DNA of 64,000 bases from Erysipelotrichaceae bacterium (GTDB lineage Bacteria > Bacillota_I > Bacilli_A > RFN20 > CAG-449), in the NCBI GenBank assembly GCA_015059095.1, contig SVBA01000005.1, positions 30,298-94,297 on the forward strand. Direction: 5' to 3'. Below the pieces are notes generated by a model, which was not told where the DNA came from, did no database searches, and saw only the letters and a list, made by a program, of their open reading frames with translations. Positions 1,583 to 53,830 of this stretch are shown here, in pieces; position 1 is the stretch's first letter, and the number at the start of each line of letters is the position of its first letter. Made by a program: the position numbers and the translations under genes.

Positions 1583-2701
1583 CTATTTAGTAATTAATTT
1601 AATGTCGTTAACTTGTCCAATGACTTCTCTACCATCCTCAATAACAACATTATTTGCAACAATAACATTTTTTAAATGAACGTTTTTACCTATAATTGCT
1701 CCAGGCATAATGACTGAATCTTCAATTTTAGAATCTTCACCAATATGTGCACCAGTAAATAATACAGAATGATTAACTTCACCAAAAATAATTGAGCCTT
1801 GATTAATAATAGAATTAGTAACTCGAGCGTTTGGTCCAATATATTGAGGTAAAGACTTTGTATCTTCCGTATAAATTTTAAATGAGGACATATTATTATA
1901 TAAATCTAATGCTTTTTCATCGTCAATTAATTCCATATTTGCTTCCCATAAAGAAGATAATGTACCTACGTCTTTCCAATATCCATCAAATGGATAACCA
2001 TATACTCCTTTATCATTATTTAAAAAATAAGGAATAATATCTTTACCAAAATCATGAGATGAAGAAGGATTATTCGCATCTAAAACTAAAGCATCTCTTA
2101 AAGAAGAATACTTAAAGATATAAACACCCATAGATGCATTTCTAGATTCTGAAAATTTTGGTTTTTCAACAAATGAAGTAACGCGTTTAGTATCATCTAA
2201 AGTTAAAATACCAAATCTAGAAACATCTTTTTCATCGCAAGTCAAACAAGCAATTGTACATTCAGCATCAACACTCTTAGTGAAAGCCAACATCTTTGCA
2301 TAATTCATTTTATAAATATGATCTGCTGATAAAATCAAAACATATTCTGGATCAATAGAATCCATATAATCTAAATTTTGATATACTGCATCACCAGTAC
2401 CTGCATACCAATGAGAGCCATCAGCCTTTTGTCTAGGACCTAAAATAGAAAACTCTGAGTTATTACCATCAAATCCCCAATGTTTCCCTTTAGAACAATA
2501 ATTTGATAATTCTACGGATTCATATTGAGTAACTACCCCAACATCAGTTACCCCAGAATTTGCTAATGAAGAAAGAACAAAGTCAATAATACGATACTTT
2601 CCTCCAAAATGAACTGCAGGTTTACTTGTTTTCATGGTTAAAGCTTCAAGTCTAGTTCCCTTACCACCTGCTAATACGATTGCTAACATCTCATTTGCCA
2701 T
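1583..2701 (-). CDS. glgC: Glucose-1-phosphate adenylyltransferase GlgC
   Basis: VLAGGKGTRL, KPAVHFGGKYRIIDF, WYAGTGDAVYQN, FVEKP, YWKDVGT motifs. Confidence 0.96.
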   Translation of the reverse strand: MANEMLAIVLAGGKGTRLEALTMKTSKPAVHFGGKYRIIDFVLSSLANSGVTDVGVVTQYESVELSNYCSKGKHWGFDGNNSEFSILGPRQKADGSHWYAGTGDAVYQNLDYMDSIDPEYVLILSADHIYKMNYAKMLAFTKSVDAECTIACLTCDEKDVSRFGILTLDDTKRVTSFVEKPKFSESRNASMGVYIFKYSSLRDALVLDANNPSSSHDFGKDIIPYFLNNDKGVYGYPFDGYWKDVGTLSSLWEANMELIDDEKALDLYNNMSSFKIYTEDTKSLPQYIGPNARVTNSIINQGSIIFGEVNHSVLFTGAHIGEDSKIEDSVIMPGAIIGKNVHLKNVIVANNVVIEDGREVIGQVNDIKLITK

Positions 2702-3644
2702 ATTTGATCACCTCATAATTTCTTAAAATACAAATGTATAAGTTTTGAAAATCATCTACTAATTTAATAAATGAATCAATCTTTTTATCGATTGAATTAT
2801 AGGTAAGTTTTTTTCTTAAAGAGTTTGTAACTCTTAATTCCCATCCATTAATATAGATAAATACTTTATTTTTATGAATTGTTAAGACAAAATTTGAGCG
2901 AGTAAATTTTCTTAAATCATAAATTAAGGAAATAATTTTATCATTAATAATTCTATGAGTTAATTTTCCTAAATTAGTATTAATAAATAAAGGATAAGGA
3001 TATTTATCAGGATAATTAATAATAAACTTATACAATCCTTTAGAATCAATTTCTTCTAGAGAAAAATTATCTTCAAATCTAAACTCTACATAACCATCAA
3101 ACTTTTGTTCATTTTCACAAGATACTAAAAGTGCTCTTTTTTTATGATTACTCTTTGAAAATAATTGAGTAAAATTAATATTAAATATACTTTTTATAGA
3201 AAAGAGATAATCTATATTCATCTTTTTATATTTAATAACATCTTCTGCAAAATCAATAGAAGAATTTACACTAGGAAGTCTTTTTTCTAAAAGATAGATT
3301 TCATTAAGCTTTAATTCTTCAAAAAATTCATTTAAATAATCCTTTTGATATTTAGTATTATTAACATAATATGAAATTAAAATGACTACAATATTAATTA
3401 ATACTACTAAAGAAATACCAGCAATATTAATGATCATTTGTAATTTTTTATTACTATCAATAAACAAAATATCAAAATGTTTTTTTATCCATGCACAATA
3501 TTCAAAATTGAAATATTGGCTAGATAAATAAAGAAAAAGAATTGCTAAAGTTAACATCATAAAAATAACGATAGCAAATACGTGTCTAGAGATATATCTA
3601 GATTTAATTGATTTAACTTTTCGTGTTGCGTTACTTGTTTTCAT
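2691..3644 (-). CDS. Hypothetical membrane protein (2 N-terminal TM helices, soluble C-terminal domain); first gene of the glg operon
   Basis: 317-aa ORF with two hydrophobic segments; 3' end overlaps the glgC start. Confidence 0.6.
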   Translation of the reverse strand: MKTSNATRKVKSIKSRYISRHVFAIVIFMMLTLAILFLYLSSQYFNFEYCAWIKKHFDILFIDSNKKLQMIINIAGISLVVLINIVVILISYYVNNTKYQKDYLNEFFEELKLNEIYLLEKRLPSVNSSIDFAEDVIKYKKMNIDYLFSIKSIFNINFTQLFSKSNHKKRALLVSCENEQKFDGYVEFRFEDNFSLEEIDSKGLYKFIINYPDKYPYPLFINTNLGKLTHRIINDKIISLIYDLRKFTRSNFVLTIHKNKVFIYINGWELRVTNSLRKKLTYNSIDKKIDSFIKLVDDFQNLYICILRNYEVIKYGK

Positions 3645-3665
3645 ATGTATAGTCCTAACAATTAT

Positions 3666-3693
3666 ATTATATCATAAAGATAAATTTTGAAAA
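3666..3693 (-). promoter_or_regulatory. Putative sigma-A promoter of the hyp-glgCDA operon
   Basis: Minus strand TTTTCA-16 nt-TATAAT with extended -10 (TGATATAAT). Confidence 0.5.
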
Positions 3694-3727
3694 GACCCAT
3701 TTTTTTCGAATTTCGAAAAAATCGAAT

Positions 3728-3755
3728 AAAAAAATAGGCTTTACAGCCTATTTTC
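3728..3755 (-). terminator. Rho-independent terminator after the jetABC/small membrane gene unit
   Basis: Inverted repeat AAAATAGGC-tttaca-GCCTATTTT followed by a T run on the minus strand, right after the stop at 3755. Confidence 0.75.
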
Positions 3756-4204
3756 TAAAAATCATCCTCGTATCTTCTAGTTTTCTTTCTCTTTCTTCTC
3801 TTCTTAAAGATAGCTAAGAATAATAACCATAAGATTGCATAAAGAGCTAATGGGAACCAAGTTGCACCTAAAATTGTTTTTTGCCATAAATCAACACCTG
3901 GAGCAATTAAGCTTAATAAATCCATAATTGTTTTATGAACAGAAACTTCAAATGGTAACATGAATGCTTCAAAACCTTGAGCGATTGGATTAACAATAGC
4001 ATTTGATGTAACAAAAGAAGAAACAACTTCAAATGTCATAGCAAATCTATATCCAAAGAAAAGTAATGGTAATAACCAAATAGAAGCCCAAATACCTCTA
4101 TATTTAGCAAAGAATAATAAAATCAATAATGGAACGATAAGACCAACTAAAAGTCCAACGTTTGCCATAACAAATATATCACTAATAGTAATTAATAAAT
4201 TCAT
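3755..4204 (-). CDS. Hypothetical small membrane protein (about 3 TM helices, basic C-tail)
   Basis: 149-aa hydrophobic ORF ending KKRRKRKKTRRYEDDF; has an RBS and its own promoter-like site. Confidence 0.65.
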   Translation of the reverse strand: MNLLITISDIFVMANVGLLVGLIVPLLILLFFAKYRGIWASIWLLPLLFFGYRFAMTFEVVSSFVTSNAIVNPIAQGFEAFMLPFEVSVHKTIMDLLSLIAPGVDLWQKTILGATWFPLALYAILWLLFLAIFKKRRKRKKTRRYEDDF

Positions 4205-4258: not shown

Positions 4259-7200
4259 TTATTTTCTAATTTCGAAAGTATCAACGAACGAACGTGAGTT
4301 TTGTCTATTAACTAGTAATGTCTTATCAACTAATTTTGCTAAATCAGAGACTTTTTCACTTGGCGCAGATAAGATTACTTGTAATCCGAAGTTCTTTAAG
4401 ATTTTAATAGATTCTATAATACGAGTTGAGTCCATTTTCGAGAAAGCTTCATCGAAAATTACTAATCTAATACAGTTTGATAAAGTACCTGATTGTCTAA
4501 TACGATAAAGTTGAGAGAATGAAGCTAATATAGAAACGTAGAATGGAGTTTGAGTTTCACCACCTGATTGCTTCTTAATATTTTTTGCTAACGAATAAGC
4601 TTTACCTTCACCTTTTTTGACTAACATATCAAACATTAAGTAAGTTCTATAATCAGTGAATTTAACAACGTTTTGTTCTAATACACTATTTTGATCTTTA
4701 CTAGAAGATACATCACCTATTAATTTAAATAAAGATGACATAACTTCTTGATATTTTTCAAAATATGTATTTTCATCTTCACCATACGATAATAATAAAT
4801 CATCAGTAATCATATCATAATATTCACGATATTGAGGAGCAGGAGTAACAACAAATTGATAAGAGTCATTACCAAATTGTGCATCTTTTAAAGCATCATT
4901 CAAATCATCAATTTGAGTTCTAACTGCTTCAATCGATGTCTTTAATTTGAAGATGAAGTCATCTTTAAATTCTTTTGTTGCTTTATTGTAAGCATCAATA
5001 ATCTTTTCTTGATACTCTGGTAATTTAACATCGCGTAGTAAAGTCAAATCATTTTCAAAATCATCATTATTTTCTTTTGTGATATCATAAGATAATTTGT
5101 AAGTTAAACAATATTCTCTTCTTAATTCATTCATCGAATTAAATTGACGTCTAATTGCATTTTGACTTCTAATGAATAAATCTTCATAATCCGTTCTAAT
5201 TGCAACTAGTGATCTACCAGAAGATAATTCTTCATTAAATTTAGGAAGAGCAATTTCATCAACAAATTGTTGATCGAAATTTTCTTTAATTTCACTTAAT
5301 ACTAAATTAGAATGTTCGATTTGTTGAGGAATTTTTTCTTCGTTGATGATACGAATATTACTTAGTAGAGAACCTCTTTCGATTGCTAAAGCTTGTTTAT
5401 CATCTTCTAAATTCTTAATATCTTGATCAATTTTTACAATTCTATTTTCAATAGAAGCAACTTCTAAAGAACCAGAATTATCTAATTCTTCTTGATATCT
5501 TTCTAAATTAGTCTTTAATCCAGGAAGAGTAGAAGCTTCTTCAAATACTTTACTTGCTTGAGTTACTTCATATGGATTTAATTGAGCTAGCTTATTAACT
5601 CCACTTAAGGTTTCATTTAAAGTTCTTAATAAAGTAATTAAACCTTCATTTTCATCAACTTCTAATTGTTTAGCTCTCATTACCTCTTGAGAAACTTTTC
5701 TACCAATTAATGGATATTGATAATTTTTAGGTGGTATAGTTTGACCAGCATAACCTTGATATAAATCACAATCAGGAGTAATGCCTCTACCAGATTCTCT
5801 AGCTTCAGCAAAAGTTTCACACTTAATTAATCTACCTAATAAGAAATTCGAATAATCTCTAGCACCTTGATGATCGGTAACAATTTCTTCCGCTAAAGAA
5901 TTATAGTCTTTAGTAATATTCGCTTTTCTTAACTTTTCAGAGTCCACTAAAATTGTGCGGTAATAATTAAGATTTTTACAAATATCTTTAAATACTCTAT
6001 AAGCAGTTTCATAGTATTCTTCATCGACAAATAAAGACAATTTTTGAGTGTTTAAATATCCTTCAACCGCTTTTACCCATCTAGGAGTTTTAATGTCCAC
6101 TAAATCAGCATAAATATAAACTTTAACTTGTTTATTATAATAATCGGATAAACGATGTTCTAACTCACTTCTTAATCTAGTAAGTTGATAATCATACATC
6201 TTACCACCATTTTTCATATCTGCGACTTGTTGTTTAGCAAAATTATGAGATGAAATTAAATCAGCAAGTGAACTTCTAATATTTAATGAAACATCTAAAA
6301 CATTTTCCTTAAATGATGTAATCGCATCTTGGAAAGAAGTAACTACTTTAGAATCCATATTTTCGATTGAATCAAAGACATTTTTAAATTCTTCACTCTT
6401 GGAAATCATATTTTCACTAGATTCAATCAAATTATCAACATCTTTTTTAAATCGAGAATATACTCTATTTTCCTTAATTGCTGTCGCTAAAGTGTTAATA
6501 TTTTTAGCAGCACTATGATAATTTGAAATATATGATGAGAAGTTAGATCTAATTGTAATTAGATTATCTTCAATTTCTTGAATTTTTCTTTCTGTTTGTT
6601 CTTTAGCATTATTTAATTCACTAGTTAATTGATATGCTCCAGAAGAAACTTTTTGAGCAATTAAACTTTCTTTTGTTTTATTTAATGATTCTAAACTAGC
6701 ATCAATACTTTCTAATTCCTTAACAATTTCTTCTAATCTTGCTTCAGAAGAAGCAACATCTTTTTGTAAATTAGAAATTTGATTTAAATATACTTGATAA
6801 GTTAATCTTTTAGAAATATAAGAAGCTAAATTTAATTCTAATTTCTTTTGTTTGAATTCTTCATAATATCTATGAATTTCTTCTAATCTAGAAATTTTAA
6901 CTTTCATATTATCTGCTTCAATTTCTAAACGTTTATATTGTTGAATATTATTTCTCATAGATTCAACGTTAATTTCAGAAGGAACATCACAAACATATTC
7001 AGTTAAAAATTGTTCAATATTTGTAATTGGAGTAAATGATACTGCCTTTTTAAATAATGAGAAATATTTATCTTTAATTCCCCCAAATACATCTTTAATC
7101 TTATCTTGATATTGTGCATTAGTATCTGCAAACCAATACTCACTTGGACGATAATTTAAAGAAAAATATTCATTTAATTGCTTATAAGACATTGGTACTT

Positions 7201-7627
7201 GTAGTGTGCAGAAATCATTTTCTGGAATTTTATCTTGAAGAATAAAGAAATGATGTTCTTCACTTGAATCTTCATAAATATCAAATACAATACCAGTACA
7301 GAAATGACTATCTGTTGTATCATCATACCATTCTAAAACGATATATGATGAGAAACGACCATTTCTTAAATATTTAAATGAACCTTCCCCATCATCACCA
7401 ATTTCACCTTTTAAGTAACCTTTTAATGTACGACCAGCTTTTTCACTAGCAGCCTTATTAAATTGTCTACCAGAAGTATCACCTAATAATACTACTTGCA
7501 TTGCGTCAATCAAAGTAGATTTACCAGCAGCATTTTGTCCAGTTAAAAAGTTAACTTGATCTAGTTCAAATGTTGTATTGTAGAAATAGTGCCAATTGAT
7601 GATACGTACTTTAACTAATTTTTTCAT
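4259..7627 (-). CDS. jetC: SMC-family ATPase, JetC/MksB-like
   Basis: N-terminal Walker A LTGQNAAGKSTLIDA, long coiled coils, signature QSGGETQ, Walker B LVIFDEAF; 1122 aa; downstream of JetA/JetB-like genes. Confidence 0.85.
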   Translation of the reverse strand: MKKLVKVRIINWHYFYNTTFELDQVNFLTGQNAAGKSTLIDAMQVVLLGDTSGRQFNKAASEKAGRTLKGYLKGEIGDDGEGSFKYLRNGRFSSYIVLEWYDDTTDSHFCTGIVFDIYEDSSEEHHFFILQDKIPENDFCTLQVPMSYKQLNEYFSLNYRPSEYWFADTNAQYQDKIKDVFGGIKDKYFSLFKKAVSFTPITNIEQFLTEYVCDVPSEINVESMRNNIQQYKRLEIEADNMKVKISRLEEIHRYYEEFKQKKLELNLASYISKRLTYQVYLNQISNLQKDVASSEARLEEIVKELESIDASLESLNKTKESLIAQKVSSGAYQLTSELNNAKEQTERKIQEIEDNLITIRSNFSSYISNYHSAAKNINTLATAIKENRVYSRFKKDVDNLIESSENMISKSEEFKNVFDSIENMDSKVVTSFQDAITSFKENVLDVSLNIRSSLADLISSHNFAKQQVADMKNGGKMYDYQLTRLRSELEHRLSDYYNKQVKVYIYADLVDIKTPRWVKAVEGYLNTQKLSLFVDEEYYETAYRVFKDICKNLNYYRTILVDSEKLRKANITKDYNSLAEEIVTDHQGARDYSNFLLGRLIKCETFAEARESGRGITPDCDLYQGYAGQTIPPKNYQYPLIGRKVSQEVMRAKQLEVDENEGLITLLRTLNETLSGVNKLAQLNPYEVTQASKVFEEASTLPGLKTNLERYQEELDNSGSLEVASIENRIVKIDQDIKNLEDDKQALAIERGSLLSNIRIINEEKIPQQIEHSNLVLSEIKENFDQQFVDEIALPKFNEELSSGRSLVAIRTDYEDLFIRSQNAIRRQFNSMNELRREYCLTYKLSYDITKENNDDFENDLTLLRDVKLPEYQEKIIDAYNKATKEFKDDFIFKLKTSIEAVRTQIDDLNDALKDAQFGNDSYQFVVTPAPQYREYYDMITDDLLLSYGEDENTYFEKYQEVMSSLFKLIGDVSSSKDQNSVLEQNVVKFTDYRTYLMFDMLVKKGEGKAYSLAKNIKKQSGGETQTPFYVSILASFSQLYRIRQSGTLSNCIRLVIFDEAFSKMDSTRIIESIKILKNFGLQVILSAPSEKVSDLAKLVDKTLLVNRQNSRSFVDTFEIRK

Positions 7628-7638
7628 TTGTGCACCTC

Positions 7639-8253
7639 CTAGAACATATCTTGACCGTATTTTTCAATTTGGTCGAAGATAACATTAATTCTATCAATAT
7701 CGATAATATAAAGAATAGAAGGTAAAATATAGAAAGTTAAACTTCTATCTCTAAATTCACCACTAACTCTTGAAATAATATTGTGATTTTCTAAGAAACG
7801 ATATGATGAAGCCATTGCAACTGCACTTGGTTTCTTATCTTGTTTAATAAGACCCTTTTCAATTAATATTTGTAATAATTCAGCAGCAGAGAAATATACT
7901 TCAGTAGTCATTTCTTCTTTTTCTTTTGATAATTCATACGCATATCTTAATCCATATACAATAATTGAAGTTAAGAAGTCAATTCTAATATGGTTATCTT
8001 GATATTCATTATTAATCATAACAACTCCAAGACGAGAGTCTTTTTCAATTGTCCATCCTGAAAATTCAAGATATTCACGAATCATATCGATATTTCTTTC
8101 AATAAAAGAATAATCTCTATTTGACTTCATCATTTTGGAATGGCGATCATAATTTTCACGAAGAATGAATGATTTTAACATTAAGTTATTAACTACACGT
8201 GCAAAATCATCTTTTTCTTGGTTTGATAATTGTAGGTATTTTTCTTCAAACAT
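7639..8253 (-). CDS. jetB: JetB/MksE-like KITE subunit (DUF4194-like)
   Basis: 204 aa, middle gene of the A-B-C cassette; DUF4194-like pattern (YLEFSGWTI..DSRLGVV; FYILPSILY). Confidence 0.75.
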   Translation of the reverse strand: MFEEKYLQLSNQEKDDFARVVNNLMLKSFILRENYDRHSKMMKSNRDYSFIERNIDMIREYLEFSGWTIEKDSRLGVVMINNEYQDNHIRIDFLTSIIVYGLRYAYELSKEKEEMTTEVYFSAAELLQILIEKGLIKQDKKPSAVAMASSYRFLENHNIISRVSGEFRDRSLTFYILPSILYIIDIDRINVIFDQIEKYGQDMF

Positions 8254-8254
8254 A

Positions 8255-9694
8255 CTATTCTCCTTTCTTTACATATGAATAGTTAGGCATTTCATATTTT
8301 TCATCTTTAGTAATTCTTTCGATATTTTCTGGACGAACATAGTTATAGAAAGAATGACGAGAATCAGCTTTTACTGTTCCTAAAATTACCATTATGAAAT
8401 CCTCAACAGATTTTACAGGAATCTTTTTAACATCGATTTCCTTATTGTCTTTAAATGCCTTAGCCATAAATTCCATGACTCTCTCATCACTATATTGATC
8501 CATAATATCTAGTAATGATTGCATTAATCCTTCATTAACTTCATGATTGAAATCATCTAATTGCATTGGATCTCCATCAATTCTAGATGATTTTCTAAAT
8601 GGCTTAGTCAATGAATCAGAATCGATATATCCTTGTTGATATAACATTATAGAGTTATTAATATCTCTAACTATACCTGGATATACTTTTCCTTTATCTT
8701 CACCATTAATAACTTTAGCTAAACTTAAGAAAATTGTTTCTAATTTACCTTTAATAGTTTTGTCTGAGTTATTAAGATAAATCACTTTTTCAGTAGTTGC
8801 TTTAGTATAAGATGATTGAGCTTTATCAATTTCATCCATTTCAAGTGCTAACTTAGCATATGTATCTTGAATGTAGTTAATCTTTTTAACAATATCTTTT
8901 TCAGCATCTTGACGATCTTTTAAACTTCTATTTAAGATTAAAGCTTGATCAATTAATTTATTTCTAACTTCTTCATTTAATAACCATCTTTTTAAAATAC
9001 TAGAAATTGGTCCATTATATAAAATGATAGAATCATTTGTCTTTAAAGGATGATAAATAGGATCAACAACATCTTCTCTTGCAATATCAAAGTGTTGAGT
9101 TAAAACTTCATTTGGAGAGAAGATATTAGATAATTGTTTATGGAATACTCTAATTGAATGATCTAATTTAGTGACTTCTAGTTCTAAGTCTCTAGTTTTA
9201 TTTGTTGCATTCATTAAAGTACGGTACATAAATTCAGATTGATTTTCATCTTCCATTTGTAAATCAGCATATGTTGAATGAACAAAAGAAATATACTTAG
9301 ATTCATTATCTGACATAAATTCATAAACAAGTTTTAACATACTGATTGAATAAGATGGAAGAAGAATATATTCTGCACCTGATTTAATTTCAGTATCTAT
9401 AACAATCCAACCAGTTTCTACTAATCTTCTAACAATTAAATTAGCCTTTGCAGCAAGTGTTGGTTCATAAATGATTGGTGAATCTTCATCAAAATCATCT
9501 TCTTCTAAAATTAATGAAGAGATTTCTTGTTCACCTCTACTTCTTAAAAGATCTAAATAATCTGATTTTCTAATACGATTATGGTATAAAATTAATGCAT
9601 CGTATAAAGTAACGAGTGCAAGACCATAAATGTTTTTATTTCTCGATGATAAGATGCTAAAGAAATTATCTGGTATCTTACTAAATAAATTCAT
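8255..9694 (-). CDS. jetA: JetA/MksF-like kleisin subunit (DUF5716-like)
   Basis: About 480 aa; N-terminus MNLFSKIPDNFFSILSS.NK.IY and LVETGWI motif. The second ATG (9694) is correctly spaced from the GGAGG RBS. Confidence 0.75.
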   Translation of the reverse strand: MNLFSKIPDNFFSILSSRNKNIYGLALVTLYDALILYHNRIRKSDYLDLLRSRGEQEISSLILEEDDFDEDSPIIYEPTLAAKANLIVRRLVETGWIVIDTEIKSGAEYILLPSYSISMLKLVYEFMSDNESKYISFVHSTYADLQMEDENQSEFMYRTLMNATNKTRDLELEVTKLDHSIRVFHKQLSNIFSPNEVLTQHFDIAREDVVDPIYHPLKTNDSIILYNGPISSILKRWLLNEEVRNKLIDQALILNRSLKDRQDAEKDIVKKINYIQDTYAKLALEMDEIDKAQSSYTKATTEKVIYLNNSDKTIKGKLETIFLSLAKVINGEDKGKVYPGIVRDINNSIMLYQQGYIDSDSLTKPFRKSSRIDGDPMQLDDFNHEVNEGLMQSLLDIMDQYSDERVMEFMAKAFKDNKEIDVKKIPVKSVEDFIMVILGTVKADSRHSFYNYVRPENIERITKDEKYEMPNYSYVKKGE

Positions 9695-9749
9695 TTTCAT
9701 CCTCCTTTTCTAAAGCAATACAAAAAGTAGACATAAGTGCTCTTTTAAT

Positions 9750-9778
9750 ATTTTATATTAAAAAACTACATTTTTCAA
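9750..9778 (-). promoter_or_regulatory. Sigma-A promoter of jetABC, overlapping the plsC terminator
   Basis: Minus strand TTGAAA-17 nt-TAAAAT. Confidence 0.5.
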
Positions 9779-10569: not shown

Positions 10570-10845
10570 TTAATATTTTAGTCCTAAATATGTAATAGTT
10601 TCAACAACAATAACCACATTATTATTAAGAGTTTCAATTCTTCCGCGAACAGCAACTAATGAATTGTTCTTAAATGTAAATATTTCACCTTTTACTTCTT
10701 TATTCCAATTACATAAAGGAATTTTATCAATAATTAGATTATCTGCAAAATTAGTATACACTCTTTCTACTAATAGATACCTAATTCTTGGCTCCTTATT
10801 ATCAATTTCGACAAGAGAGCCAACCAAACAAATAGAATTCAACAT
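10570..10845 (-). CDS. Short SSB-like OB-fold protein lacking the acidic C-terminal tail
   Basis: N.ICLVG.L...IDKIPLCNW...LVAVRGRIET resembles the SSB OB fold; 91 aa; strong GGAGG RBS. Confidence 0.65.
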   Translation of the reverse strand: MLNSICLVGSLVEIDNKEPRIRYLLVERVYTNFADNLIIDKIPLCNWNKEVKGEIFTFKNNSLVAVRGRIETLNNNVVIVVETITYLGLKY

Positions 10846-37670: not shown

Positions 37671-37900
37671 TGAACCTCTCATATCTAAAGACACAAGATT
37701 CTTGCTTCAGAGAATAACTAAGGATATTCTCTCCACAAGCGTAACTTCGGGTAGTTCCTACCCTAGATATATTTTATTATTTAATTATGATTTTGTCCAT
37801 AATGTAAAATATTTAAAGATGCATTATAATCTCTATCTATCTTTAAAGAACAATATGGACATTGATATATTCTAGAATCTTTTACTTCATAAGTATTGTT
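37650..37900 (-). ncRNA. Predicted TnpB omega-RNA (right-end RNA) with 3' guide from flanking mscS; 5' boundary approximate
   Basis: Right-end hairpins GGGTAG-gaa-CTACCC, AGAGAATA...TATTCTCT and the terminal CTTTAG stem, then flank ATGGAATGAATTATGGAATC. Confidence 0.65.
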
Positions 37901-39078
37901 ACATCTAGAACATGTTTTACTTGATGGATAATACCTATCTATTTTATGTATTTGTTTATCATACATTTTTGCTTTATATTCTAAAACTTTAATTAATCTT
38001 CCTATACAAGTAGATATTAACTTTCTTTTATTTCTTTTTACTACTTGTTTAGTTATTAATTCTTTTATATTTAGATCTTCTATATATAAAGTATCATATT
38101 CTTTAATTAATGAACTTGTTATCTTATGAATATAATCATTAATAATATTTACTTTATGTTCTTCTATTTTAGCTTTCTTTATTCTTAGTTTCTTTCTATT
38201 AGAAGAATCTATCTTTGTTTTTGATATTCTTCTTTGTAATCTAGTTATCTTTTTTTCTATTTTATCTAGTTTCAATGGATTTACATAAATAACATTATCA
38301 CTAGTCGTCACTAGATTTCTTACTCCTACATCGATTCCTACTTCTTTATTTGTCTTAACTAATGGATTTATATCTACTTCATGAATAATAGAAGCATAAT
38401 ACTTATTTGATGGAGTTCTAGTAACTGTTACACTTATTATTTTTACATCATTAAAAGAATAATGATATTTACATTTAATTAATCCTAGTTTAGGAAGTTT
38501 AATATGTTTAGATAATATCTCGATATTATTATTTGTATAATTAGTTCTAAAACTTTGATATGTATTTTTCTTAGATACATATTTAGGTTTATTAAATCCT
38601 TTTTTAGATTTAAATTCTTTCTTAATATCTATAAAGAAGTTATTATAAGAAGTTTTTAAATCCTTTAATGAATTTTGAAGAACAAACTTATCTACTTCTT
38701 TTAAAAATGAAGTATCTTCTTTTTGTTTTAAAGAAGTTAACTCTTTACTCCAAGAATAATAAGAATAATCTTTGTTAGAAGTTGAATAATCTAAAAAGTA
38801 ATTATAAACATATCTTCTACAACCAAAAAAAGAGTTCATCTTATTAATTTGTTCTTTATTTGGATATAGTCTTATCTTAATTCCTTTTTGCATTATTTCT
38901 CTCCTTGCGTTTTTATAGTAAGTTTTCCTATATATATTATATAGCAAACCTTGATATAGTTCTACAAAAATTTATTTTTTTGTATCTTTGATACAAAAGC
39001 GAGATTATTTTTAGATTATAGATGAAAAGAAAAACCAATTTACTCTCACATTAATAAGAGAGTGGGGGTCGGTTGGTT
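37670..39078 (-). mobile_element. Non-autonomous IS200/IS605-family (IS1341-like, tnpB-only) element
   Basis: Left end begins after TTGAT (39083-39079) with hairpin ACTCTC...GAGAGT; right end GAATC-TTGTGTC-TTTA-GATATGA-GAGGTTCA(A); no target duplication; no tnpA. Confidence 0.9.
37781..38893 (-). CDS. tnpB: RNA-guided endonuclease TnpB
   Basis: Start MQKGIKIRLYPN (AAGGAG RBS); RuvC D (GIDVG), E (IEDL), D (DRDYNASLNI); zinc finger CSRC...CPYC. Confidence 0.95.
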   Translation of the reverse strand: MQKGIKIRLYPNKEQINKMNSFFGCRRYVYNYFLDYSTSNKDYSYYSWSKELTSLKQKEDTSFLKEVDKFVLQNSLKDLKTSYNNFFIDIKKEFKSKKGFNKPKYVSKKNTYQSFRTNYTNNNIEILSKHIKLPKLGLIKCKYHYSFNDVKIISVTVTRTPSNKYYASIIHEVDINPLVKTNKEVGIDVGVRNLVTTSDNVIYVNPLKLDKIEKKITRLQRRISKTKIDSSNRKKLRIKKAKIEEHKVNIINDYIHKITSSLIKEYDTLYIEDLNIKELITKQVVKRNKRKLISTCIGRLIKVLEYKAKMYDKQIHKIDRYYPSSKTCSRCNNTYEVKDSRIYQCPYCSLKIDRDYNASLNILHYGQNHN

Positions 39079-53751: not shown

Positions 53752-53830
53752 TCTATAGACTTAGACTCGCTTTCAAGGTAGATTACTCATTTTTGGAACC
53801 TTTTTAATGCGGTTGAGGCCCTCTATAAGG
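53752..53830 (-). ncRNA. L21 ribosomal protein leader RNA
   Basis: Upstream of rplU: ...ACCGCA..AAGGTT...ACCTTGAAAGCGAGTCTAAGTCTATA, resembling the Firmicutes L21 leader; terminal stem CTATAG. Confidence 0.7.

What the first reader, a model, noticed from the sequence alone, without database searches (positions are those of the whole stretch)
4259..9778. Wadjet/MksBEF SMC operon without the JetD/MksG nuclease, in housekeeping context
Seen: jetA-jetB-jetC-like genes with intact Walker A, signature and Walker B motifs and their own promoter. They are flanked by ssb-like/plsC and the glycogen operon, with no integrase, IS or other defence genes nearby. No TOPRIM-type jetD occurs before or after the cassette; the next gene is a 149-aa membrane protein, then a terminator. 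Established: Wadjet anti-plasmid cleavage needs JetD, while nuclease-less MksBEF of P. aeruginosa acts as a chromosome condensin. Inference: either a defence SMC domesticated as a chromosome organiser (possibly replacing Smc-ScpAB in a reduced genome), or a system using a trans-encoded or different effector.
Basis: partly seen in the sequence, partly recalled or inferred. Interest (0 to 1): 0.7.

Follow-up and report, generated by a model that had tools for sequence, protein, structure and literature searches.

The report
Domesticated nuclease-less Wadjet (JetABC) operon
This is an intact, transcribed three-gene DNA motor (JetABC) of the plasmid-cutting "Wadjet" type that lost its cutting subunit once, long ago, has since been inherited like a housekeeping gene in a clade of uncultured gut Bacilli, and has a rebuilt nuclease-docking site, so it most likely folds or segregates DNA, as the already known MukBEF and MksBEF do.

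Summary
On the minus strand, jetA (8255-9694), jetB (7639-8253) and jetC (4259-7627) are strong type I Wadjet matches with intact ATPase motifs. No JetD is detectable in any frame of the 64-kb window, which is otherwise core chromosome.

In 80 related genomes the JetD-less operons form one outgroup-rooted clade (63 species, 99% support), usually followed by glgC-glgD-glgA. The sister clade and two plasmid outgroups keep jetD abutting jetC.

The genes are under strong purifying selection (dN/dS 0.06-0.14). Four gut metatranscriptomes show transcripts that start at the predicted promoter and end at the predicted terminator.

The JetC "larynx" segment, where E. coli F919 docks JetD, is the most diverged stretch between the clades: hydrophobic in JetD-bearing systems, acidic here. 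A neighbouring His conserved in JetD-bearing systems is Tyr here and in two independent JetD-loss lineages.

Best reading: a domesticated, nuclease-free loop-extruding SMC complex. Loss of JetD/MksG within the Wadjet group is already published, so this is a new member of a known kind.

The parts
9750..9778 (-). Sigma-A-like promoter of jetA (TTGAAA, 17 nt, TAAAAT). Its -35 lies in the loop of an AT-rich hairpin plus T-run (about 9787-9760) that ends the plsC transcript.
   Evidence: Consensus scan and sequence. RNA contigs of four metatranscriptomes end at 9717-9728, and depth falls to about 0-2.5 over plsC and p91.
8255..9694 (-). jetA, the kleisin (479 aa from the ATG at 9694; an in-frame ATG at 9700 lies directly against the GGAGG).
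   Evidence: Pfam PF18982 JetA E=1.6e-80 and PADLOC JetA1 E=1.7e-106. Gene callers in identical contigs give 479 aa. dN/dS 0.10-0.13.
7639..8253 (-). jetB, the KITE / MukE-like subunit (204 aa).
   Evidence: Pfam DUF4194 E=6e-15 and PADLOC JetB1 E=4.5e-63. dN/dS about 0.06. The N-terminal helix is kept, with F2 here against W2 in the JetD-bearing clade.
4259..7627 (-). jetC, the SMC / MukB-like ATPase (1122 aa).
   Evidence: PADLOC JetC1 1096 bits; Pfam AAA_29, SbcC_Walker_B and MukB N-terminal. Solved JetC chains 9qxt and 8as8 are the best PDB matches. dN/dS 0.09-0.14.
7514..7540 (-). JetC Walker A (residues 30-38, GQNAAGKST).
   Evidence: G30, G35, K36, S37 and T38 are invariant in 63 of 63 JetD-less and 12 of 12 JetD-bearing relatives, except S37 at 10 of 12.
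4550..4567 (-). JetC signature motif S-G-G-E-T-Q (residues 1021-1026).
   Evidence: Invariant in all relatives.
4448..4468 (-). JetC Walker B (residues 1054-1060, RLVIFDE).
   Evidence: F-D-E is invariant in all relatives.
4751..4789 (-). JetC 'larynx' segment (residues 947-959, S-YGEDENTYFEKY), the counterpart of the E. coli JetC F919-H927 segment that docks the JetD aCAP domain. Here it is one residue shorter and acidic, and the conserved His is Tyr.
   Evidence: Ranks first of 1084 six-column windows for clade divergence, loss of hydrophobicity and gain of negative charge. H to Y is the only switch among 25 columns shared by JetD-bearing Firmicutes and E. coli. The outgroups keep L-F, and Rossellomorea keeps the full G-Y-N-L-F-S...K-H motif. 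Docking role from bioRxiv 10.1101/2023.11.03.565488.
3755..4204 (-). m149, a small multi-pass membrane protein with a polybasic tail and an acidic/aromatic tip (KKRRKRKKTRRYEDDF). It is co-transcribed with jetC and also has its own promoter-like site at 4256-4228.
   Evidence: No Pfam or PADLOC hit. Homologues lie directly after jetC in all 11 members of the window's subclade and nowhere else in the fetched loci. An RNA contig spans 3765-4569. It evolves fast, dN/dS 0.33-0.42.
3729..3756 (-). Intrinsic terminator that closes the jetABC-m149 unit.
   Evidence: 12-bp stem followed by a T-run. RNA contigs stop at 3763-3765 and depth is 0 over 3205-3738.

Best explanation
jetA-jetB-jetC encode a complete type I Wadjet-derived SMC holocomplex (JetC ATPase dimer, JetA kleisin, JetB KITE dimer) that works without a nuclease.

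Shown here:
- The three genes are intact, under strong purifying selection and transcribed in vivo from their own promoter.
- No jetD lies in the window or within 10 kb of jetC in any of the 60 JetD-less relatives with enough flanking sequence.
- The JetD-less state arose once, at the base of a clade of at least 63 species of uncultured low-GC Bacilli.
- It sits at a fixed core-chromosome position (ftsK/pulA/plsC - jetABC - glgCDA).
- The JetC surface segment that docks JetD in E. coli has been replaced by a conserved acidic loop.

Inferred: the complex still loads on DNA and extrudes loops using ATP, as JetABC does. Having lost its executioner, it acts on the chromosome (compaction, segregation or resolution of sister chromosomes) in the way the nuclease-less Wadjet-group complexes MksBEF and MukBEF do. 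In the window's own subclade a co-transcribed small membrane protein (m149) may be an accessory partner.
For: - Identity and intact motifs.
- No JetD in the six-frame window search; JetD abuts jetC only in 12 Clostridia-type loci and in both plasmid outgroups.
- Synteny with glgCDA down to 36% JetC identity.
- Outgroup-rooted tree with a 63-row JetD-less clade at 99% SH-aLRT.
- dN/dS for jetA/B/C of 0.06-0.14, like glgC and pulA and below ftsK and plsC.
- The base composition of the operon matches the rest of the window.
- No close plasmid relative (28% identity at most).
- Metatranscriptome contigs cover jetABC-m149 with ends at the predicted promoter and terminator.
- Larynx loop ranks 1 of 1084 for clade divergence, and H927-equivalent His becomes Tyr, recurring in the independent JetD-loss lineages L082 and L078.
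- Docking role of E. coli F919.
- Published precedent for JetD loss giving chromosome-acting complexes: PMC10586767 and bioRxiv 10.1101/2024.10.02.616235 Fig. S1A.
Against: - The whole genome could not be searched, so a jetD gene elsewhere is not excluded.
- No functional data exist for any member of this clade. Action on the chromosome is inferred by analogy.
- Whether Smc-ScpAB is present is unknown. If it is, the added value of a second condensin is unclear.
- The residue-level mapping of E. coli F919 is ambiguous. phmmer and MAFFT place it at column 1031 (D951 here), while hhalign places it on a conserved aromatic at column 1035, which is F or Y in both clades.
- RNA evidence comes from assembled contigs of one study, without strand information.
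Confidence: 0.6

Rival explanations
1. It is still a nucleolytic plasmid-defence system. JetABC senses small circular DNA and recruits a JetD, or another nuclease, encoded elsewhere in the genome.
For: JetABC alone provides the DNA-shape sensing in Wadjet (PMC10586767). The rest of the genome could not be searched. Complete jetABCD exists in other Erysipelotrichales such as Bulleidia extructa.
Against: - In every JetD-bearing locus seen, jetD overlaps or abuts jetC: 12 chromosomal loci and 2 plasmid loci.
- None of the 60 JetD-less loci with enough flanking sequence has JetD within 10 kb.
- The hydrophobic docking dipeptide is replaced by acidic residues, which resembles the inactivating F919E mutation, and the linked His is lost.
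- The operon sits in core synteny and has no defence-island neighbours.
Confidence: 0.12
2. It controls plasmids or other mobile DNA without a nuclease. JetABC fully extrudes small circles and then holds, compacts or mis-segregates them instead of cutting, in the style of Smc5/6 silencing. In this subclade m149 might help at the membrane.
For: The sensing machinery is fully conserved. A conserved acidic patch replaces the JetD site, which suggests a new use of that surface rather than drift. m149 is co-transcribed and always follows jetC in the subclade.
Against: There is no precedent in bacteria. m149 is absent from 52 of the 63 clade members, evolves fast (dN/dS 0.33-0.42) and has no recognisable domain. 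Vertical, housekeeping-like conservation is unusual for immunity genes.
Confidence: 0.15
3. It is a decaying remnant of a defence system with no current function.
For: Loss of the effector is often the first step of decay. L082 (jetD in three pieces) and L078 (no jetD) sit on very long JetC branches.
Against: All three reading frames are intact across 63 species. dN/dS is 0.06-0.14. The ATPase motifs are invariant. The operon is transcribed in vivo. Branch lengths are normal, unlike those of L082 and L078.
Confidence: 0.02

Closest known systems
Type I Wadjet / JetABCD (E. coli GF4-3 JET, PDB 8as8, 8bfn, 8q72; P. aeruginosa PA14 JetABC, PDB 8dk1-3; also called MksBEFG or EptABCD)
   Same: Same three core subunits in the same gene order. 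The best HMM matches are the type I models JetA1, JetB1 and JetC1. Solved JetC chains are the best PDB matches. The ATPase motifs and the JetB N-terminal helix are kept.
   Different: There is no JetD in the operon or the window. The JetC larynx docking segment is acidic instead of hydrophobic, and the linked His is Tyr. The context is core and syntenic rather than a defence island or plasmid, and inheritance is vertical.
MksBEF of Pseudomonas aeruginosa (nuclease-less Wadjet-group condensin)
   Same: An SMC-kleisin-KITE operon of the Wadjet group without MksG/JetD. [quoted passage not shown]
   Different: The origin is independent, inside Firmicute type I Wadjet, with a JetD-bearing sister clade at 36-39% JetC identity. 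A chromosome role is shown for P. aeruginosa and only inferred here.
MukBEF of E. coli and other gamma-proteobacteria
   Same: A Wadjet-group SMC complex lacking the nuclease, vertically inherited as a core gene set (bioRxiv 10.1101/2024.10.02.616235).
   Different: MukBEF replaced Smc-ScpAB and is highly diverged. Here only the first 55 residues of JetC touch the Pfam MukB N-terminal model (36 bits), JetA and JetB match no MukF or MukE model, and replacement of Smc-ScpAB was not testable.
Mycobacterial MksB (a condensin beside EptABCD)
   Same: A second, nuclease-less Mks-type complex reported to act in chromosome and replisome organisation while a JetD-bearing paralogue does the defence (PMC11329512, abstract seen).
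   Different: It is from a different phylum and coexists with a complete Wadjet. Whether this genome has any other SMC system is unknown.

Membership tests
Type I Wadjet (JetABCD) plasmid-defence system | JetA kleisin (DUF5716 / PF18982) | tested here: met
   Pfam E=1.6e-80; PADLOC JetA1 E=1.7e-106.
Type I Wadjet (JetABCD) plasmid-defence system | JetB KITE subunit (DUF4194) | tested here: met
   Pfam E=6e-15; PADLOC JetB1 E=4.5e-63.
Type I Wadjet (JetABCD) plasmid-defence system | JetC SMC ATPase with intact Walker A, signature and Walker B motifs | tested here: met
   PADLOC JetC1 1096 bits; motifs invariant across the clade.
Type I Wadjet (JetABCD) plasmid-defence system | JetD Toprim nuclease encoded with the operon | tested here: not met
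   The six-frame JetD profile search of the 64-kb window gives a best E-value of 0.82. In JetD-bearing relatives and outgroups jetD abuts jetC. The rest of the genome was not searchable.
Type I Wadjet (JetABCD) plasmid-defence system | JetC larynx residue(s) that dock the JetD aCAP domain (E. coli F919; F919E is inactive) | tested here: inconclusive
   phmmer and MAFFT map F919 to D951. The hydrophobic pair [ILV/R][F/A] of all JetD-bearing sequences is [ED][DA] here, and the segment ranks 1 of 1084 for divergence. hhalign instead maps F919 to a conserved F/Y four residues later. The H927 equivalent is Tyr.
Type I Wadjet (JetABCD) plasmid-defence system | Patchy or mobile distribution in a defence-island or plasmid context | tested here: not met
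   The window is core chromosome. Synteny with glgCDA is conserved in most of the 63 species. The clade is monophyletic. Plasmid homologues are 28% identical at most.
Type I Wadjet (JetABCD) plasmid-defence system | Restriction of small circular plasmids by cleavage | not testable with these tools
   Needs transformation or plasmid-stability assays, or reconstitution.
Nuclease-less Wadjet-group condensins (MksBEF / MukBEF kind) | SMC-kleisin-KITE operon of the Wadjet group lacking MksG/JetD | tested here: met
   The phenomenon is catalogued in bioRxiv 10.1101/2024.10.02.616235 Fig. S1A.
Nuclease-less Wadjet-group condensins (MksBEF / MukBEF kind) | Maintained by selection as a vertically inherited core gene set | tested here: met
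   dN/dS 0.06-0.14; 63-species clade at 99% support; synteny; transcription.
Nuclease-less Wadjet-group condensins (MksBEF / MukBEF kind) | Acts in chromosome organisation or segregation | not testable with these tools
   Needs Hi-C, ChIP-seq or genetics in a cultivable relative or a heterologous host.
MukBEF proper | MukF and MukE subunits and a full-length MukB match | tested here: not met
   JetA matches only PF18982 and JetB only PF13835. The MukB N-terminal model matches only residues 6-60, at 36 bits.
Smc-ScpAB | Canonical Smc (SMC_N above threshold, with hinge) together with ScpA and ScpB | tested here: not met
   SMC_N scores 17.8 bits against a cut-off of 40 and there is no hinge model hit. 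No ScpA or ScpB was found among the window proteins scanned.

The most novel reading that the evidence does not exclude
In this deep clade of small-genome gut Bacilli the former JetD-docking surface of JetC was converted into a conserved acidic patch that recruits a new, non-nuclease partner. In the window's subclade that partner could be the co-transcribed membrane protein m149, with its polybasic tail. The nuclease-free JetABC would then have become the principal, or even the only, chromosome condensin. That would be a second, independent replacement or sidelining of Smc-ScpAB, caught with its JetD-bearing sister clade still alive.
Probability: 0.1. Interest if true: 0.75.

Novelty: new member of a known kind. 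Interest (0 to 1): 0.42.

Why it matters
A leading hypothesis holds that bacterial condensins such as MukBEF and MksBEF descend from plasmid-defence Wadjet systems by loss of the nuclease. MukBEF is too diverged to show how that happened.

Here the event is recent enough to read. A JetD-less clade of 63 species sits next to a JetD-bearing sister clade at 36-39% JetC identity. The sequence changes that go with the loss are concentrated at the experimentally defined JetD-docking site: a hydrophobic loop becomes an acidic one, and His becomes Tyr. The His-to-Tyr change recurs in two other JetD-loss lineages.

That gives concrete residues to mutate, and a natural pair of systems to compare, for anyone asking what turns an immune SMC into a chromosomal one.

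The phenomenon as such is already catalogued, and nothing here shows a new mechanism.

Tried and rejected
- **Genome-wide searches:** This is the main gap.
- **Smc probe:** a tblastn of a remembered B. subtilis Smc sequence against all 1.6 Mb of fetched loci found nothing. This is uninformative, because the loci cover only about 10 kb either side of jetC.
- **Earlier scan notes for this genome:** they hold nothing on smc, scpAB or jetD.
- **m317 as an alternative effector:** rejected. Its confident model (pLDDT 88) resembles the glycolipid-transport factor TtfA and not a nuclease, and its stop overlaps the glgC start.
- **m149 as an effector:** unlikely. It has 149 aa, only transmembrane helices and a charged tail, no family hit, and occurs in one subclade only.
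- **JetB N-terminal helix, the second predicted JetD contact:** it is retained and differs only by W2 to F2, so it does not discriminate.
- **Exact residue equivalence of E. coli F919:** hhalign disagrees by four residues with phmmer and MAFFT. I therefore claim only that the segment is remodelled.
- **Promoter prediction alone:** consensus matches are not enriched over shuffles in this AT-rich DNA. The promoter call rests on the RNA contig ends.
- **'ssb-like' neighbour:** no HMM support.
- **Plasmid origin:** rejected.
- **Population variants carrying an insertion after jetC:** none seen in four DNA runs.
Full report
**What is there**

All genes in the first 16 kb of the window are on the minus strand. 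The ORFs at 8255-9700, 7639-8253 and 4259-7627 match:
- Pfam JetA (E=1.6e-80) and DUF4194 (E=6e-15).
- The AAA_29, SbcC_Walker_B and MukB-N models.
- The type I PADLOC models JetA1 (E=1.7e-106), JetB1 (E=4.5e-63) and JetC1 (1096 bits).

The best solved-structure matches of JetC are E. coli and P. aeruginosa JetC chains. Walker A, the signature S-G-G-E-T-Q and Walker B F-D-E are intact, and invariant in all 63 JetD-less and 12 JetD-bearing relatives examined. A GGAGG lies 6 nt before the ATG at 9694, so jetA most likely starts there (479 aa, as gene callers also give).

Downstream come:
- A 149-aa membrane protein (m149, 3755-4204).
- A strong terminator (3756-3729).
- A 317-aa membrane protein (m317, 2691-3644) whose stop overlaps the start of glgC.
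- glgC, glgD and glgA.

Upstream lie plsC, a 91-aa gene without family hits, a pullulanase and ftsK.

The rest of the window is core chromosome: mraZ-rsmH, ftsW, murG, ftsZ, spoIIGA-sigE-sigG, pheST, ruvAB, recJ, secDF, obg, rplU with its L21 leader, ligA, uvrC and mutS2. The only mobile-element gene is a TnpB at 37.8 kb. G+C content is uniform at about 27%.

**No JetD**

I built a JetD profile from the roughly 410-aa ORFs that abut jetC in ten related loci; the one from Caldicoprobacter oshimai is confirmed as Pfam JetD_C (E=3.5e-28). The profile finds nothing in a six-frame translation of the window (best E=0.82).

A jetD elsewhere in the genome, and the presence of smc-scpAB, therefore could not be tested. 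This is the main limitation of the report.

**Relatives**

The collection holds very many homologues, with JetC identity falling smoothly from 92% to about 43%. A scan of one genome per species returned more than 540 JetC-encoding stretches; the best 80 were kept.

- In most of these loci, down to 36% JetC identity, jetABC is followed directly or nearly directly by glgC-glgD-glgA. In many, plsC, pullulanase and ftsK lie upstream.
- JetD is present in 12 loci, always overlapping or abutting jetC. All 12 are Clostridia-type organisms at 39% JetC identity or less.
- In L082 jetD is broken into three ORFs, and L078 has none.

The maximum-likelihood JetC tree, rooted with two plasmid-borne jetABCD operons from Cohnella and Rossellomorea, splits the ingroup in two. 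One clade of 16 rows is JetD-bearing and contains L082 and L078 on very long branches. The other has 63 rows (60 without JetD, 3 with contigs too short to tell), with 99% SH-aLRT support and a stem of 0.52. The simplest history is one ancient loss of jetD in an ancestor of these uncultured low-GC Bacilli, followed by vertical descent.

The closest plasmid homologues are only 28% identical. DNA assemblies from independent gut samples are collinear across m317-m149-jetC.

**Selection and expression**

Against two close relatives (92% and 87% JetC identity), dN/dS values are:

| Gene | dN/dS |
|---|---|
| jetA | 0.10-0.13 |
| jetB | 0.06 |
| jetC | 0.09-0.14 |
| glgC | 0.05 |
| pulA | 0.08-0.10 |
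| ftsK | 0.20 |
| plsC | 0.16-0.23 |
| m149 | 0.33-0.42 |
| m317 | 0.31-0.36 |

So jetABC is as constrained as glgC and pulA and more so than ftsK and plsC, while m149 and m317 evolve much faster.

Four bovine-gut metatranscriptome runs hold the operon. Laid on the window:
- Their contigs cover jetA-jetB-jetC at about 99% identity.
- They end at 9717-9728, just downstream of the predicted -10 box (9755-9750).
- Depth drops to about 0-2.5 over plsC and the 91-aa gene.
- Contigs run from the 3' end of jetC through m149, stop at 3763-3765 at the terminator, and leave 3205-3738 uncovered.

This pattern is what RNA, not contaminating DNA, would give. It confirms an independently transcribed jetABC-m149 unit.

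Caveats: these are assembled contigs from one study, and they carry no strand information.

**The JetD-docking site**

[quoted passage not shown] JetC F919 inserts into a hydrophobic pocket of JetD, and F919E abolishes restriction (bioRxiv 10.1101/2023.11.03.565488).

phmmer and MAFFT both place F919 at window residue D951. At this segment the sequences are:
- The 12 JetD-bearing Firmicute sequences read G-Y-N-[ILV]-[AF]-S.
- The Rossellomorea outgroup reads G-Y-N-L-F-S.
- Cohnella has S-L-F and E. coli has A-R-F.
- Nearly all of the JetD-less clade has a loop one residue shorter that is acidic (x-G-[ED]-[DA]-[ED]).

Among 1084 six-column windows of the JetC alignment, this segment ranks first for between-clade Jensen-Shannon divergence, first for loss of hydrophobicity and first for gain of negative charge.

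Eight residues further on, the His equivalent to E. coli H927 is conserved in all 12 JetD-bearing sequences, in the two JetD-clade loci with truncated contigs and in Rossellomorea. It is Tyr in 58 of 60 JetD-less clade members, and also in L082 and L078, which lost JetD independently. It is the only one of 25 columns shared by JetD-bearing Firmicutes and E. coli that is switched.

Caveat: hhalign maps F919 four residues later, onto an aromatic that both clades keep. So I claim remodelling of the docking segment, not loss of one specific residue.

The JetB N-terminal helix, a second predicted JetD contact, is retained (W2 to F2 only).

**The membrane-protein neighbours**

m149 homologues follow jetC in all 11 members of the window's subclade and nowhere else. 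They share a polybasic tail with an acidic/aromatic tip.

m317 belongs to a DUF3137-like family. The family lies between jetC and glgC in three JetD-less subclades, and stays next to jetC in L012 and L014, where the glg genes are absent. Its model is confident (pLDDT 88) and resembles the mycobacterial glycolipid-transport factor TtfA (Foldseek E=7.6e-5), not a nuclease.

Neither protein looks like a replacement effector. Most of the clade has no gene at all between jetC and glgC.

**Interpretation**

The data fit a domesticated, nuclease-free SMC complex that still hydrolyses ATP and presumably extrudes DNA loops, acting on the chromosome. They fit poorly with an active nucleolytic defence system or with a decaying remnant. 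A non-nucleolytic role in controlling small circular DNA cannot be excluded.

**Comparison with the literature**

The kind is known:
- Bürmann et al. (bioRxiv 10.1101/2024.10.02.616235) map loss of MksG/JetD across the Wadjet group in their Fig. S1A.

I found no paper that describes this Bacilli clade, its glg synteny or the docking-site changes. Bulleidia extructa, another member of the Erysipelotrichales, carries a complete jetABCD.

Earlier notes of this scan report the same JetD-less operon in five other genomes. I re-derived the vertical-inheritance conclusion independently. New here are outgroup rooting, the expression evidence and the docking-site analysis.

**Verdict**

This is a new member of a known kind, of moderate interest.

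Noticed in passing
window 2691-3644 (-): m317 is a two-TM membrane protein of a DUF3137-like family. Its confident model (pLDDT 88) resembles the mycobacterial trehalose-monomycolate transport factor TtfA (PDB 6t84, E=7.6e-5). Its stop overlaps the glgC start. The family stays next to jetC in L012 and L014 even where the glg operon is missing.
   Followed up: partly
window 3755-4204 (-): m149 has a conserved C-terminal polybasic stretch followed by an acidic/aromatic tip (KKRRKRKKTRRYEDDF; relatives end in EDYF, YDE or similar). It appears more highly transcribed than jetC in four metatranscriptomes.
   Followed up: partly
L082 13349-14550: In an uncultured Clostridia MAG the jetD gene after jetC is split into three ORFs that all match the JetD profile, so it is probably a pseudogene. 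Its JetC sits on a very long branch and already carries the His-to-Tyr change.
   Followed up: partly
window 10570-10845 (-): The 91-aa gene upstream of plsC has no Pfam or NCBIfam hit. By eye it looks like a short OB-fold (N-terminal ...ICLVGSL..., C-terminal ...VAVRGRIE...). It is conserved upstream of plsC-jetABC in the subclade.
   Followed up: no
window 37781-38947 (-): A TnpB / IS605 OrfB-type gene (OrfB_IS605, Cas12f1-like TNB and HTH domains) is the only mobile-element gene seen in the window.
   Followed up: no
L009 11216-12475: A choloylglycine (bile-salt) hydrolase family gene (E=8e-92) is inserted between m149 and m317 in one rabbit-gut relative.
   Followed up: no
L029-L033, L036, L041, L062, L075, L077: Several 'cleanbin' genome records carry organism labels (Slackia, Parabacteroides, Phocaeicola, Alistipes, Prevotella, Lachnospiraceae) that do not fit their contigs. 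The contigs are syntenic with, and nest phylogenetically among, low-GC Bacilli MAGs, so the taxonomy in the record titles is probably wrong.
   Followed up: no
window 53753-53824 (-): An L21 leader (Rfam RF00559, 37.8 bits) lies upstream of rplU, as expected in Bacillota.
   Followed up: no
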